NCBI RefSeq assembly: GCF_902713615.1 | Contig: NC_052157.1 | Location: forward strand, 64,343,703-64,407,702 | Direction: 5' to 3' | Length of the DNA stretch: 64,000 nt | Source of the DNA: Scyliorhinus canicula | Lineage: Eukaryota | Shown here: one piece after another, positions 13,101-22,100 of the stretch | Layout of the letters: each line of letters opens with the position of its first letter | Position numbering within the stretch: the first letter of the stretch is position 1 | Made by a program: the position numbers

Positions 13101-16100
13101 AGTGCTGCACTGCTGGAGGGTCAGTACTGATGGAATGCTGCGCTTTTAGAAGGTCAGTACTGAGGGAGTGCTGCACTGTCAGAGGGTCAGTACTGAGGGA
13201 GTGCTGCACTGTCAGAGGGTCAGTACTGAGGGAATGCTACACTGTCAGAGGATCAGTACTGAGGGAGTGCTGCACTGTCAGAGGGTCAGTACTGAGGGAG
13301 TGCTGCACTGTCAGAGGGTCAGTACTGAGGGAGTGCTGCACGGTCAGAGGGTCAGTACTGAGGGAGTGCTGCACTGTCAGAGGGTCAGTACTGAGGGAGT
13401 GCTGCACGGTCAGAGGGTCAGTACTGAGGGAGTGCTGCACTGTCTCAGGGTCAGTACTGAGGGAGTGCTGCACTGTCAGAGGGTCAGTACTGAGGGAGTG
13501 CTGTACTGTCTCAGGGTCAGTACTGAGGGAGTGCTGCACTGCCAGAGGGTCAGTACTGAGGGAGTGCTGCACTGTCTCAGGGTCAGTACTGAGGGAGTGC
13601 TGCACTGTCAGAGGGTCAATACTGAGGGAGTGCTGCACTGTCAGAGGGTCAGTACTGAGGGAGTGCTGCACTGTCAGAGGGTCAGTACGGAGGGAGTGCT
13701 GCTCTGTCAGAGGGTCAGTACTGAGGGAGTGCTGCACTGTCAGAGGGTCAGTACTGAGGGAGTGCTGCACTGTCAGAGGGTCAGTACTGAGGGAGTGCTG
13801 CACTGTCTCAGGGTCAGTACTGAGGGAGTGCTGCACTGTCAGAGGGTCAGTACTGAGGGAGCGCTGCACTGTCGGAGGGTCAGTACTGAGGGAGTGCTGC
13901 ACTGTCAGAGGGTCAGTACTGAGGGAGTGCTGCACTGTCTCAGGGTCAGTACTGAGGTAGTGCTGCACTGTCGGAGGGTCAGTACTGAGGGAGCGCTGCA
14001 CTGTCTCAGGGTCAGTACTGAGGCAGTGCACTCTTTGCGATTAAATATTAAAACAAGACCTCTCAGGTCGATGTAAAAATACCACAGCCACCAAAAGCAG
14101 CGGGAGTTCTCCCTTGGGTCTCGGGCCAATATTTATTGATTAATCAATTTCACAAAAAGTATGGTCTGATCATTTACACTATTTGTCCTGTGCTGTGGAC
14201 TCCTTGTGATAATGATTTTACCTGAAAATCACACGTACATTATGCACCATGACACATTGGAATATCTGTGAGAAGTTTATACATTTTTTGAAGACATCAC
14301 TCCTGTGCTCCCTGGCCCTTGGTCCAGCACTGCTTCATACATAATATTGTCATACTTATATTTAAATCTCTCTGAGCCTCACACCTTCCCTATCTTTATA
14401 ACTTCCTCCAGTCCCTAAAACCCTCCCTATCTCTGTAACCTCTTGCAGACCCTGAAGCCCTCCATATCTCTGTAACTTCTTCTCGCACCTCCAACCCTCA
14501 TATCTTTGTAACCTTCTGCGATCCCTACAACTCTCCCCATCTCTGTAACTTCCTCTAGCTCCTACAACCCTATCATGTAACCTCATCCAGCTCCTAATAA
14601 TAATCTTTATTACTGTCACATGTAGGCTTACATTAACACTGCAATTAAGTTACTCTGAAAATCCCCTAGTCGCCACACTCCGGCGCCTGTTCAGGTACAC
14701 AGAGGGAGAATTCAGAATGTCTCACAAGCACGTCTTTCAGGACCCTCCCGATCTTTGTAACCTTTGTAACCTCCTCCAGCCCATACAACCCACTGTATCT
14801 TTGTCAGCTCCTCCAAAGGCTAGAACCCTCCCTATCTCTGTAAACTCCTCCAGCTCTAACAACCCTCCCTATCTCTATAATCTCCTGCAGCCCCTACAAT
14901 CCTCCCTATCTCTATAAACTCCACCAGTCCCTACAATCCTCCCTATTTCTGTAACAACCTCCAATCCCAAGAACCCTCCCTAGCTTTGTAGCCTCCTCCA
15001 GCCCCATAACCCTCCCTATCTCTGTAACAACCTCCAGCCCCTACAACCCTCCCAATATCTGTAATCTCCCACCAGTACAAGCAGCAGATAATTCTGCGCT
15101 CTTCCAATTCTATACCCCTGTTCGTCCCTGATTTCCATTACTTCATCATTGGAAGGAGTGAGGCCATGAAGCAGTCTGGAAGCAAGGGCAGGAATCAAGG
15201 TATTGCTAGACTTGGAGCCAATGTAGGAGAGCAGTAAACTGGAAGATAGGACAACAAGAATTAAGACATGAGCAGTAGAGCTTTGATTGAGCTCACATTT
15301 ATGGAGGGAGGCAGACCAAGTCACCACACCATGTGAACATTCATCAGCTACAATTCATGACACATCTCAATGACTAGGGGCTCGTCATATGGAACACAGG
15401 GCCGACCTTCGACTTGGAAATGCAAGATTTGTACTTGGCAGCACACATCACACGGACAAAGACCGCCCTCAATGCATTCCCAAAATCCTTTTTCCTCAGG
15501 GCGTAGACCATCGGGTTGATGAGTGAGTTCAGATGCGAGAGGACCACCACCAAGTTCCCCAGCCATGAGGGCAAGCTGCAGGCAGGGCAGAAGAACACTA
15601 GGCTATTGACCACATTGAGGGGCAGCCAGCAGAGGCAGAAGAGGCCCACCATCAGGAAGAGGGTCTTGGCGGTCTGGATCTCACTGCGCTTGGCCGATCT
15701 GAACTGCTGACTGTTGAAGTACTGGCGAACAATGCGAAAAGAATCGGTGTAAATCCCGAGCATGACCAAGAGGGGCAGGAGTGTCCAACAGAAAAACATG
15801 AAGTACACCATGTAGTTGAAGGAAATCACACTGCGGAATGAACAAGGCGCAACGGACGTCCAGCTGTGATTGGCGGGTATCATGACCTTGAAGGGTCGGG
15901 GGAAGAATCCCAAAAGAGAGATCTCTCTCAGGATGGACCTTTCGGCAGGAATGGTGAAGTTGGTCGTTAAGGCGACGAAAGTGCCTGAGCTGTTCCACCC
16001 CATCACCGGGGTGAAGCCAATAATCAAGGCCAAGATCCAGCAGAAGGCAATCGCCAAGGTGACACGCTTCTTGGTGACCAGAATGCTGTATCTGGGGAAA

Positions 16101-19100: not shown

Positions 19101-22100
19101 GGTTGTAGTAGGGGGTTACAGAGATAGGGAGGGTTGTAGGAGGGGGGTTACAGAGATAGGGAAGGTTGTAGGAGGGGGTTACAGAGATCAGAAGGGTTGT
19201 AGGAGGGGGTTACAGAGATAGGGAGGGTTGTAGGAGGGGGTTACAGAGATCGGAAGGGTTGTCGGAAAGTGTTAGAGATAGGGAGGGTTGTAGGAGGGGG
19301 TTACAGAGATCGGGAGGGTTGTTGGAGGGGGTTACAGAGATAGGGAGGGTTGTAGGTGTTGGAGGGGGTTACAGAGATCGGGAGGGTTTTAGGAGCTGGA
19401 AGATGTTACAGCGATAGGGAGGGTTGTAGGAGGTTACAGAGATCGGAAGGGTTGGAGGAGGGGGTTACAGAGATAGGGAGGAGATGAAGAGAGATTTGAA
19501 AACAAAGCCATAAAAGTGATGTCTCGTCAGGCTACGAGTCAATGTGCCTCAGCAAGCATCGGGGAGGGGTGATAGGTGAATGAAGCTGGTGCAGGTTCGG
19601 ACACATAGAACAAGGTTCTGGATGAGTTGAAGTGAACGGACCGAGAGAGAGCGTCAGTGCAGCTGAGTCTGGTCAGGGTTGACATAAGATCAAATGGCAC
19701 GAGGTTCGCTGGTTTACCTGCTTGGCTGGCGGATTTTCAGGTGGGTGTTGATTGCGATGGCTAGCAGCACAAAGACTGAGAACTGCGTTGTGATGAGCGG
19801 GAAACAGGCGAGGAGCAGACAGCCATAAAAACAGACGGTGAGGTCCAAGGTGAGCAAGATGGAGCATGGGACAGCCAGGGCCCCCACGCTCAGATCCGCC
19901 AGGGCCAGGCAGGCGATCAGGTAGTTAGTCAGGGTCCTTAGTTCTTTGTGTAAGTACACAGTCGCACAGACCAGCAGGTTCATACTAATGACTCCAACAG
20001 CGAGCGTTGCCTCCAGAACAATGAAGAGACTGTCCGCTCCCATTGATTCGGTTAACGTTTCCGACACAAGGTCACTTTCCAATGCTGTCTTTTCCTCCCA
20101 AGCTTCTAATATAAAGGTTCCGTACTTGCTACGGTGCTGGCGTCTCTTCACAACTTAAGTGGAAACTAACAGGAGATTGGTATATAAGTGCACTAACATG
20201 CTGATAACCTGACAGGCAAATTAGAAGTAGAGGGGGTTACAGAGAAACGGATAATCATGGAAATCATTATTGTTATCCCTCACGGAGAAAGAAGCTTCAG
20301 TGCAACTCACAGGCAAAACTTTGCATTCTCTTCCATTGCGTGAGTTTGTATCTATAACTTGAATTTTCAGGCATATTTTGCCGCGGTTCCAAATGGTAGC
20401 GTTCTGCAAGGGATCAGCGGAAACAAGCCTGCATGTGCATTAAGGAAGCACTCAGAGTCTCTTATCGGATGACACCATACTTCACAGCAAACATTAGCAA
20501 CTGTTGGAGTGTAAAAAATAAACTGATGGATTCACACAGACAACAGGGTGTCTCCTGTTGTCAGGTTCTGAGATGAGCACAGGCTGTTGCCAAGAGAAAG
20601 CAAATTGATACCAGAGCATAATGTGGACTTTGAAAAGTGCATCTGAGATCTATAAATGATAATCAATGTCTCACATCACAGCACATTAATGTGCTTCAGT
20701 TCACTTTTCAGCAAATAAACGGTTCCCAACTCACAGTTTCACAACATGGGCAGTAGCCAATTTGCTTCACTTTTGTTCCTTATGTATTTGGTGCTTGGGG
20801 CCATTCGTAAATTGCAAGGAATATCACCCCACTATCAAAGTTGATGAGAATCACATGCGCCCTAAACCTCCCACTAATCTGTCCCCATCAAACACTCCCA
20901 GGACAGGTACAGCACAGGGTTAGATACAGGTAAAGCTCCCTCAATACTGTCCCCATCAAACACTCCCACCACAGGTACAGCATGAGGTTAGATACAGGTA
21001 AAGCTCCCTCAATACTGTCCCCATCAAACACTCCCACCACAGGTACAGCATGAGGTTAGATACAGGTAAAGCTCCCTCAATACTGTCCCCCATCAAACAC
21101 TCCCACCACAGGTACAGTACTGGGTCAGATACAGAGAGTGCGATTCTCTAGCCTTGTTGTGCTCTCGCTAGAGTGAAACAAGTCCAGTGAATTGCGGAAG
21201 AGGCCGAAAACAAGAACCTTGTCAGGCTTGTTTGCGATGCAGCCGGCCCACTCCCGTTGGCGAAATCGGGATCTCACCGTAGTGTGGCGAGAAATCAATT
21301 ATCACCACTTAAGCCCCATTTCCATACAATTAACGGGAGTGATCCTGTATCCAACGACCTCCCATCATTCATCCGCCTCCCCAGCAAGTGGTCACAAGGG
21401 CAAAATTAGTACTCATTTTTAAAAATATGACCCATGCAGAAGGGCTTCTGTGGGGAGTCGAGGAGGTAAATAGCCACCTTTGCTCGCAGGCAAAGAGCCT
21501 GGGCGTGTTGGGCTTGCCACCTAGTGCTCGGCAGAGGGTGGACCGCCATGGGATGATGGGGTGGAGAAGCGCTGGGGAAGCAATGGGGAGGCAACCACAT
21601 GCAGTACCACCATGCCAACCCCTGGCTCATGTGTATCATTTCGGGGGCAACACTTGTCCCTGCCCATCTGCCCCAATAACCACCCATAACCCCCAGACTG
21701 CCGAGGCCTCTGGCCAAGCGCCTGAAGGCTATTGCTGATTGGGAATAGGCAATCGTGGTTAGGTGAGAACTTCACACAACCCAAGTGGATTCCTGTGGGT
21801 AGGTGGGCCATGTAGCACGTGGGAGTCATTGCCAAGGATCCCAATCAGACCACGATGCTTGAACACTGCAGGAGCCAACACCACACACGTACAACCAACA
21901 TCCGAACACCCAGGAGATGTCACACAGCTCCAAGGACATGTCCATGGCCGGAGGGTGGGTGAGGGCCATGGGTAGGGGGGATGCCTGGAGATAGGCCTAG
22001 GATTCGGCTGTCGGCCCGCATTACGGAAGAAACCCCTCCACCTTGTGATCCTCGATGTGCTTTGTCTTCCTAGCTCTACCGCTACATCTAGGTGTGTCCC

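What the first reader, a model, noticed from the sequence alone, without database searches (positions are those of the whole stretch)
15374..20043. Divergent adenosine-receptor-like GPCR with DRY replaced by NTH
Seen: an intact 347-aa two-exon ORF with the family's ICL2 intron. Aligned by eye with A2A, it keeps the TM1 Glu, TM3 Thr-Gln, ECL2 C-x-F, CWLP, TM6 Asn6.55, TM7 Ser-His and NPxxY. It changes DRY to NTH (losing Arg3.50), TM1 GN to MN, His6.52 to Asn and the ECL2 Glu to Arg, and has a long ECL2 with several N-x-S/T sites. Established: Arg3.50 is central to class A G-protein coupling. Inference: this may be a lineage outside A1/A2A/A2B/A3 acting as a decoy, biased or altered-ligand purine receptor. 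No such gene is recalled at the human RPS19/DMRTC2 locus.
Basis: partly seen in the sequence, partly recalled or inferred. Interest (0 to 1): 0.65.

Follow-up and report, generated by a model that had tools for sequence, protein, structure and literature searches.

The report
Adenosine-receptor gene lacking the DRY motif
This is an intact two-exon gene for an adenosine-receptor relative that keeps the adenosine-binding core but has lost the motif such receptors use to switch on G proteins, and it probably belongs to a receptor lineage that mammals lack.

Summary
On the minus strand, exon 1 (20043..19718) and exon 2 (16091..15374) are joined by GT-AG across a 3,626-nt intron full of minisatellites. 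They encode 108 + 1 + 238 = 347 residues. Each exon, searched alone, matches human adenosine receptors far better than any other receptor family.

Codon-position composition is strongly coding-like.

The flanking genes are confirmed: RPS19 and a DM-domain gene.

A lineage outside A1/A2A/A2B/A3 is plausible but not new. Kowatschew & Korsching 2021 described the adora4 and adora5 clades, with shark members and mammalian loss. I could not place this gene in either clade. The homology databases and the paper supplements were closed, so NTH conservation, phylogeny and dN/dS stay unchecked.

My best reading is a real non-mammalian ADORA paralogue that probably binds adenosine and has a remodelled G-protein interface. 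Decoy or biased signalling is inference only.

The exons were never joined for any search or fold. I do not take the window for human.

The parts
19718..20043 (-). Coding exon 1: Met1 to Ser108 plus the first two bases (AG) of the split Arg codon. It encodes the short N-terminus, TM1-TM3 and the start of ICL2.
   Evidence: Sequence and translation. Pfam 7tm_1 at 6.2e-11. Human A2A at 77 bits, E 1.2e-20.
19741..19749 (-). Codons AAC ACC CAC, giving Asn-Thr-His at the positions of Asp3.49-Arg3.50-Tyr3.51 (the DRY motif).
   Evidence: In the alignment, query 'aiainthlkirqp' lies against A2A 'AIAIDRYIAIRIP'. The bases were read. My count (no call made it): at least four base substitutions separate these codons from any set of DRY codons.
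16092..19717 (-). Single intron, phase 2, GT..AG, 3,626 nt. It is mostly minisatellite arrays.
   Evidence: Splice sites read. Length and ends. Tandem repeats: a 33-mer x46 at 16127-17643 and 36/37-mers at 17766-19481.
15374..16091 (-). Coding exon 2: the last base of the split Arg codon, 238 codons and the TAG stop. It encodes the rest of ICL2, TM4-TM7, helix 8 and a short C-tail.
   Evidence: Pfam 7tm_1 at 1.5e-20. Human A2A at up to 141 bits, E 4.9e-40.
15851..15982 (-). The long ECL2 stretch (exon-2 residues 37-80), which has no counterpart in the A2A alignment. It holds two of the three N-x-S/T sites (NFT, NHS). The third (NSS) lies just before it.
   Evidence: Gap between aligned blocks 1-36 and 81-127. 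Sequons. GC3 is 0.705, like the rest of the exon. No other copy in the window.
14606..14611 (-). First AATAAA on the gene's strand after the stop, about 765 nt downstream. It is a candidate poly(A) signal only.
   Evidence: It is a consensus match and not evidence of use. The next one is at 14132-14137.

Best explanation
This is a real, intact gene for an adenosine-receptor paralogue of the ADORA clade. It is distinct from the four mammalian subtypes. It most likely belongs to one of the two non-mammalian clades already described, adora4 or adora5, and sits between RPS19 and a DM-domain gene.

SHOWN
- The gene structure, the family assignment and the residue pattern.

INFERRED
- The residues that anchor adenine (Asn6.55, ECL2 Phe, Leu6.51, Trp6.48) and ribose (Thr3.36, Ser7.42, His7.43) are all kept, so it probably still binds adenosine or a close nucleoside.
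- The rim and lid of the pocket are rebuilt: Val3.32 to Pro, Asn5.42 to Met, His6.52 to Asn, ECL2 Glu to Arg, Met7.35 to Gly, Tyr7.36 to Asn, the His264 position deleted, and an ECL2 about 28 residues longer with three glycosylation sequons. Affinity and selectivity should therefore differ from A2A.
- On the cytoplasmic face the G-protein contact surface is altered at several points: DRY to NTH, Ala3.53 to Lys, and the ICL2 hydrophobic residue (A2A Leu110) to Ser. The switches that move the helices are kept: sodium pocket, CWxP, Tyr5.58, Glu6.30, NPxxY and the helix-8 Phe.
- So I expect a receptor that still changes conformation on ligand binding but activates G proteins weakly or not at all. 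It would act through arrestin or internalisation, or as a modulator or sink for adenosine.
For: - Intact model with canonical splice sites.
- Both exons hit adenosine receptors first. Exon 1: A2A 77, A2B 75, A3 58, A1 55 bits; the next family, TAAR13, is at 39. Exon 2: A2A 136-141, A1 125.6, A2B 124.8, A3 105-115; the next, 5-HT1A, is at 64.
- All seven anchor residues are kept in the alignments. A preprint on a shark receptor states that the ECL2 Phe and Asn6.55 are invariant in all ADORs it examined.
- Coding signature: GC3 is 0.70/0.76 against GC2 0.39/0.42. The codon-position contrast of 0.349 in exon 2 exceeds all 1,216 control windows of the same strand, whose maximum is 0.332.
- Kowatschew & Korsching 2021 state that all vertebrate adora genes share one conserved splice site and that adorb genes are mostly without introns. 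They also state that adora4 and adora5 have shark members and no mammalian ones.
- The NTH, Lys and Ser changes at the G-protein face are read and from the exon junction.
Against: - No orthologue, transcript or population data could be examined. NTH could be private to this assembly or species, and the gene could be freshly inactivated.
- Similarity ranks A2A and A2B above A1 and A3. That is not what a simple clock predicts for adora4 (sister to A3) or adora5 (basal to A1/3/4).
- Pro at 3.32, Met at 1.49 and a long ECL2 are unusual and could equally mark decay.
- Which residues contact the G protein, and what follows from losing Arg3.50, rest on my recollection of A2A-Gs structures and mutagenesis. 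No call tested them.
- Some receptors without Arg3.50 still signal.
Confidence: 0.6

Rival explanations
1. It is a unitary pseudogene in an early stage of decay. The receptor was disabled by losing DRY and other conserved residues, and the open frame has simply not yet been hit by a stop or frameshift.
For: - All three DRY residues are replaced. Gly1.49 is Met and Val3.32 is Pro.
- ECL2 is unusually long.
- The locus is crowded with minisatellites and retroelements.
- No expression or orthologue evidence was available.
Against: - 347 codons are open with canonical GT-AG.
- Exon 2 stayed open in only 2 of 20,000 shuffles.
- The strong GC3/GC2 contrast is retained, including within the ECL2 extension.
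- Microswitches scattered over all seven helices are kept while the changes cluster on two surfaces. That pattern looks selective rather than random.
Confidence: 0.15
2. It is a fast-evolving orthologue or lineage-specific duplicate of A2A or A2B, and so nests within a known subtype.
For: A2A and A2B give the highest scores for exon 1, and A2A the highest for exon 2. The ECL3 CPxC found in A2A is present.
Against: - Identity to human A2A is only about 47% over 268 aligned positions (hand count).
- For exon 2, A1 (125.6 bits) scores as well as A2B (124.8).
- There is no long A2A-type C-tail.
- ECL2 lacks the extra cysteines of A2A. It holds one Cys only.
- From my memory of human map positions, not tested: the RPS19 region is paralogous to the regions holding ADORA1 and ADORA3, not to those holding ADORA2A and ADORA2B.
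Confidence: 0.15
3. The gene model is slightly wrong. Part of the long ECL2 is a small unrecognised intron, and the true protein is about 30 residues shorter with an ordinary ECL2.
For: An in-frame GT..AG pair of 90 nt exists in the ECL2 region and ends in a pyrimidine-rich tract. Removing it would bring the loop close to A2A's length.
Against: - The donor, GTCGCC, is far from consensus.
- The 30 codons have GC1/2/3 of 0.40/0.47/0.70, the same coding pattern as the rest of the exon.
- Kowatschew & Korsching report vertebrate adora genes as sharing the same conserved splice site. I read that as a single shared intron.
- None of this bears on NTH.
Confidence: 0.05

Closest known systems
Human adenosine A2A receptor (solved structures such as 5G53, 2YDO, 3EML)
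   Same: - It is the best sequence match for both exons.
- The overall layout is the same, with the intron falling between the residues aligned to A2A Pro109 and Tyr112.
- Shared residues: Glu1.39, Asn1.50, Asp2.50, Cys3.25, Thr3.36, Ser3.39, Trp4.50, ECL2 Cys-x-Phe, Pro5.50, Tyr5.58, Glu6.30, CWLP, Leu6.51, Asn6.55, ECL3 CPxC, Ser7.42, His7.43, Asn7.45, Ser7.46 and NPxxY.
   Different: - About 47% identity only (hand count).
- NTH for DRY, Met for Gly1.49, Pro for Val3.32, Lys for Ala3.53, and Ser for ICL2 Leu110.
- Arg for Glu169, Met for Asn5.42, Asn for His6.52, Gly and Asn for Met7.35 and Tyr7.36, and the His264 position absent.
- ECL2 is about 28 residues longer and lacks A2A's two extra cysteines.
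- The C-tail is short, about 27 residues after helix 8 begins, against A2A's long tail (the A2A tail length is recalled).
adora4 and adora5 clades (Kowatschew & Korsching 2021, PMC8462279)
   Same: They are ADORA-clade genes with the conserved adora splice site. They are present in sharks and absent from mammals, and their ligands are unknown.
   Different: Membership could not be tested. I had no sequences, because the supplements and the homology databases were closed. In the sections I read, the paper says nothing about DRY, ECL2 length or chromosomal position for these clades.
adorb (A2c) olfactory adenosine receptors and the dogfish 'A0' receptor (bioRxiv 10.1101/2020.11.01.363762)
   Same: They are non-mammalian adenosine receptors with shark members. 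A0 responds to adenosine analogues and keeps the ECL2 Phe and Asn6.55.
   Different: - adorb genes are mostly without introns, or have introns at other positions.
- A0-type and olfactory receptors have a minimal 9-residue ECL2.
- The gene here has the ICL2 intron and a very long ECL2.
Atypical, G-protein-uncoupled class A receptors (ACKR family, C5aR2): a functional analogy only
   Same: A ligand-binding 7TM fold is kept while the DRY region is altered. Search listings describe such receptors as arrestin-coupled or scavenging (listings and abstract starts only).
   Different: They belong to unrelated families with peptide or protein ligands. Nothing here shows that the present receptor fails to couple or that it scavenges.

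Membership tests
Class A (rhodopsin-family) GPCR | 7tm_1 domain above Pfam's gathering score | tested here: met
   Exon 1 scores 42.7 bits and exon 2 scores 74.2 bits, against a cut-off of 30.5. Hydropathy gives three hydrophobic stretches in exon 1 and four in exon 2.
Class A (rhodopsin-family) GPCR | E/DRY motif at the cytoplasmic end of TM3 | tested here: not met
   NTH lies at the aligned positions. This is a hallmark of the class and not a strict requirement.
Adenosine receptors, ADORA clade | Adenosine receptors are the best matches, with a clear margin over other families | tested here: met
   Exon 1 scores 55-77 bits against 39 for the next family. Exon 2 scores 105-141 against 64. Only solved, mostly human chains were available for comparison.
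Adenosine receptors, ADORA clade | ECL2 Phe and Asn6.55, said to be invariant in all ADORs, together with Thr3.36, Ser7.42, His7.43 and Glu1.39 | tested here: met
   All are present in the alignments.
Adenosine receptors, ADORA clade | One conserved intron shared by all vertebrate adora genes | tested here: inconclusive
   One phase-2 intron lies in the ICL2-coding region, between the residues aligned to A2A Pro109 and Tyr112. That the reference genes are split at exactly this codon is recalled. No call checked it.
Adenosine receptors, ADORA clade | Binds and responds to adenosine | not testable with these tools
   This needs binding and signalling assays.
adora4 or adora5 (Kowatschew & Korsching 2021) | Falls inside the clade in a maximum-likelihood tree with adora1-5, adorb and outgroups | not testable with these tools
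No adora4 or adora5 sequence was available.
adorb (A2c) / shark A0 type | No intron, or an intron at a non-adora position, and a minimal ECL2 of about 9 residues | tested here: not met
   The gene has an ICL2 intron. About 44 residues lie between the TM4 and TM5 aligned blocks.
A2A or A2B orthologue | Nests in the A2 clade, has A2-type synteny and, for A2A, a long C-tail | tested here: inconclusive
   A2A and A2B give the highest scores for exon 1, and A2A does for exon 2, where A1 scores as high as A2B. Identity to A2A is only about 47%, the tail is short, and the neighbours are RPS19 and a DM-domain gene. No tree could be built.

The most novel reading that the evidence does not exclude
This would be a naturally G-protein-uncoupled, 'atypical' adenosine receptor. 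It would be an old vertebrate paralogue, kept in cartilaginous fish and lost in mammals. It would still bind adenosine through a conserved core but, having lost DRY and the ICL2 hydrophobic contact, would work as an arrestin-biased receptor or an adenosine sink. That would make it the purinergic counterpart of the atypical chemokine receptors.
Probability: 0.2. Interest if true: 0.7.

Novelty: new member of a known kind. Interest (0 to 1): 0.42.

Why it matters
Adenosine receptors are among the best-studied drug targets, and all four mammalian subtypes carry DRY. The extra vertebrate clades adora4 and adora5 were named only in 2021, and that paper says their ligands are unknown.

An intact member with a conserved adenosine pocket and a rebuilt G-protein face would be useful in two ways. 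It would be a natural experiment on how much of adenosine signalling depends on Arg3.50. It would also be a possible example of an adenosine decoy.

If NTH turns out to be private to one assembly, or the gene is decaying, this is simply one more lineage-specific GPCR loss in progress.

Tried and rejected
- ESM Atlas on exon 2. It returned only generic class A GPCR clusters, so it gave no help with the subtype. The second call was not spent.
- AlphaFold2 on exon 2 alone, without an alignment. Mean pLDDT was 47.7 and pTM 0.30, and ECL2 was below 50 throughout. The model was too poor to use, so no fold search was run.
- Paralogue search inside the window by tblastn with each exon. Apart from the self-matches, the best E-value was 0.35.
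- Rfam at gathering thresholds over the whole window. There were 0 matches.
- Cryptic-intron scan of the ECL2 region. Eight in-frame GT..AG pairs of 45 nt or more were found, and one of them (90 nt) would bring the loop close to A2A's length. I judged it unlikely because its donor is weak and its codon-position GC is coding-like.
- Literature searches. 'adora4' or 'adora5' occur in 3 papers only. One of these was the 2021 description and one a turbot gene list naming adora4a. The third, a paper on chemotherapy-induced neuropathy, I did not open. A five-term search for adenosine-receptor synteny and gene loss found 0 papers. A search for adenosine receptor + DRY motif + fish + novel found 46 papers, of which 15 were listed. 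Judged by title and abstract start, none concerned a DRY-less adenosine receptor.
- The shark 'A0' receptor was considered as the identity of this gene. I rejected it because A0 has a minimal ECL2.
- Genome contigs was not scanned, because it holds only bacterial and archaeal genomes.

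
Full report
WHAT IS THERE

The feature is on the minus strand. An ATG at 20043 is the first Met after an in-frame stop at 20157-20155. From it the frame runs 108 codons to a donor site, cag|GTAAAC, so exon 1 is 20043..19718. A strong acceptor, tttttttccccag|A, opens exon 2 at 16091, and the frame then runs 238 codons to a TAG at 15376-15374.

The length is arithmetic from the two separate translations, and every search below was done exon by exon.

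One trap is worth noting. The stop-to-stop frame that contains exon 2 (15374..16417) is also 347 codons long, because it reads on into intronic minisatellite. That is a coincidence.

The window has no N. I do not take it for human. It carries an adenosine-receptor gene between RPS19 and a DM-domain gene, together with dense minisatellites and retroelements.

FAMILY

Both exons carry Pfam 7tm_1 above threshold.

Bit scores against all solved-structure chains:

| Exon | A2A | A2B | A3 | A1 | Next family |
|---|---|---|---|---|---|
| 1 | 77 | 75 | 58 | 55 | TAAR13, 39 |
| 2 | 136-141 | 124.8 | 105-115 | 125.6 | 5-HT1A, 64 |

So it is an adenosine-receptor relative by a wide margin. It is also not close to any human subtype. 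My hand count from the printed alignments gives about 125 identities in 268 aligned positions to human A2A (47%).

RESIDUES

Kept:
- Glu1.39, Asn1.50, Asp2.50, Cys3.25, Thr3.36-Gln3.37, Ser3.39 and Trp4.50.
- ECL2 Cys-x-Phe, Pro5.50, Tyr5.58, Glu6.30, Phe6.44 and CWLP.
- Leu6.51, Asn6.55, ECL3 CPxC, Ser7.42-His7.43, Asn7.45-Ser7.46, NPMVY and the helix-8 Phe.

Changed:
- DRY to NTH (AAC ACC CAC at 19749-19741).
- Gly1.49 to Met, Val3.32 to Pro and Ala3.53 to Lys.
- ECL2 Glu to Arg, Asn5.42 to Met and His6.52 to Asn.
- Met7.35 to Gly, Tyr7.36 to Asn and Ile7.39 to Val, with the His264 position deleted.
- By continuity across the exon junction, the residue before the split Arg is Ser where A2A has Leu110. 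By my recollection, that is the ICL2 hydrophobic residue that inserts into the G protein.

NTH is not a slip of frame. Neither of the other two frames reads DRY, and at least four base substitutions separate these codons from any set of DRY codons.

ECL2 has about 44 residues between the aligned blocks where A2A has about 16. It has three N-x-S/T sites and only the one conserved Cys.

IS IT A LIVE GENE?

I could only test the sequence itself.
- Exon 2 stayed open in 2 of 20,000 mononucleotide shuffles, and exon 1 in 475 of 20,000.
- GC at codon positions 1, 2 and 3 is 0.56/0.39/0.70 in exon 1 and 0.41/0.42/0.76 in exon 2, against 0.53 in the intron.
- The codon-position contrast of exon 2 (0.349) exceeds all 1,216 control windows on the same strand, whose maximum is 0.332.
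- The 44 extra ECL2 codons show the same pattern, with GC3 of 0.705. That argues they are coding and not a retained intron.
- The most plausible in-frame GT..AG alternative is 90 nt long and has a poor donor, GTCGCC.

The substitutions are not scattered. They cluster on the pocket rim and lid and on the G-protein face, while the switches inside the helix bundle are kept.

None of this replaces orthologue evidence, and I could not obtain any. So conservation of NTH, a phylogeny and dN/dS all stayed unchecked.

WHAT IS KNOWN

Kowatschew & Korsching 2021 (PMC8462279). I read the abstract, parts 1-2 of the Results and the matched passages. The supplements were closed. The paper shows the following.
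- Besides adora1, 2a, 2b and 3, vertebrates have adora4. It is sister to adora3, is found in shark, coelacanth, gar and teleosts, and was lost in tetrapods.
- They also have adora5. [quoted passage not shown]
- A separate adorb clade (A2c) exists.
- The ligands of adora4 and adora5 are unknown.
- In the parts I read, the paper does not mention DRY, ECL2 or map positions for these clades.

A preprint on a dogfish receptor called 'A0' (10.1101/2020.11.01.363762). I read the abstract, sections 9, 15 and 16 and the matched passages. It describes a shark, amphibian and reptile branch with a minimal 9-residue ECL2. It states that the ECL2 Phe and Asn6.55 are invariant in all ADORs examined.

The present gene has the ICL2 intron and a very long ECL2, so it is neither adorb-like nor A0-like. 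It fits the description of an adora4 or adora5 member, but I could not test that.

Two leads point in different directions.
- Similarity scores favour A2A and A2B.
- From my memory of human map positions, the RPS19 region at 19q13.2 is paralogous to the regions that hold ADORA1 and ADORA3. ATP1A1, ATP1A2 and ATP1A3 mark the three regions. That would place the gene with the A1/A3/A4/A5 group.

The second lead comes from no call and is only a lead.

HOW IT MOST LIKELY WORKS

Shown: the pocket core is kept and the G-protein face is changed.

Inferred:
- The receptor binds adenosine or a near relative, with shifted affinity and selectivity. Part of the reason is that the A2A Glu169-His264 lid pair is gone.
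- It still undergoes the activation movements, because the sodium pocket, CWxP, Tyr5.58, Glu6.30 and NPxxY are kept.
- It engages G proteins poorly, because Arg3.50, its neighbours and the ICL2 hydrophobic contact are lost.

Arrestin-biased signalling, constitutive internalisation or ligand scavenging are then the natural outcomes, by analogy with atypical chemokine receptors and C5aR2. For those I saw only search listings and abstract starts.

I put about 0.6 on 'a real non-mammalian ADORA paralogue with altered coupling'. Within that, I put about 0.2 on a true G-protein-silent adenosine receptor.

Rivals:
- Early pseudogene, 0.15.
- Divergent A2-type gene, 0.15.
- Slightly wrong model in ECL2, 0.05. 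This rival is compatible with any of the readings above and does not bear on NTH.

SURROUNDINGS

- RPS19's first coding exon lies at 1136..1067 on the minus strand, with its ATG directly after the acceptor. It matches eS19 residues 1-23 at E 2.5e-08.
- A DM-domain exon lies at 33758-34072 on the plus strand (Pfam DM, 8e-19). The receptor gene and the DM gene are therefore head to head, about 13.7 kb apart.
- There is no second receptor copy in the window.
- There are no Rfam matches.

VERDICT

A lineage outside the four mammalian subtypes is plausible, but such lineages are already described. The functional idea is reasonable and untested.

I rate it a new member of a known kind, of moderate interest. 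The interest would rise sharply if NTH proves to be conserved.

Noticed in passing
window 12808-14029 and 16127-17643: The same 33-nt minisatellite occurs in two arrays, 37 and 46 copies at 85-89% matches. The consensus units are reverse complements of each other. The arrays therefore form a large inverted pair that brackets exon 2 of the receptor gene, one in the intron and one about 1.3 kb beyond the stop.
   Followed up: partly
window 17766-19481 and 14383-15069: G-rich minisatellites of 36/37 nt fill the 5' half of the intron on the plus strand, and GC skew is +0.55 over 18-20 kb. C-rich arrays with a 37-nt period lie in the 3' flank. By eye they look like the reverse complement of the intron units. 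I did not compare them.
   Followed up: no
window 15374-16417 (-): The stop-to-stop frame holding exon 2 is also exactly 347 codons, because it reads on into intronic repeat. It is a coincidence with the 347-aa spliced model and could mislead.
   Followed up: yes
window 1067-1136 (-): This is the first coding exon of RPS19. Its ATG lies immediately after the acceptor AG, and the donor is GTATGT. The rest of the gene runs off the left end of the window.
   Followed up: yes
window 33758-34072 (+) and 43534-43806 (+): The first stretch is a DM-domain exon (Pfam DM). About 9.5 kb downstream is a frame that by eye continues the DM domain, although Pfam found nothing in it (0 families). Between the two lie long open frames at 35538-40359. 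The two I sent to Pfam gave no match at E 0.001. This may be a retroelement inside the intron.
   Followed up: partly
window 47148-51118 (+), 23340-25243 (+), 7726-8190 (+): Retroelement coding remains. At 48428-51118 there are reverse transcriptase, RNase H and integrase domains. At 23340-25243 there are reverse-transcriptase fragments. At 7726-8190 there are integrase and zinc-finger domains.
   Followed up: partly
window 20863-21134: A 68-nt tandem repeat, 4 copies at 93% matches, lies about 0.8 kb upstream of the receptor's ATG.
   Followed up: no
whole window: AATAAA occurs 95 times, against 33 expected from dinucleotide shuffles. This probably reflects AT-rich repeats and not signals.
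   Followed up: no
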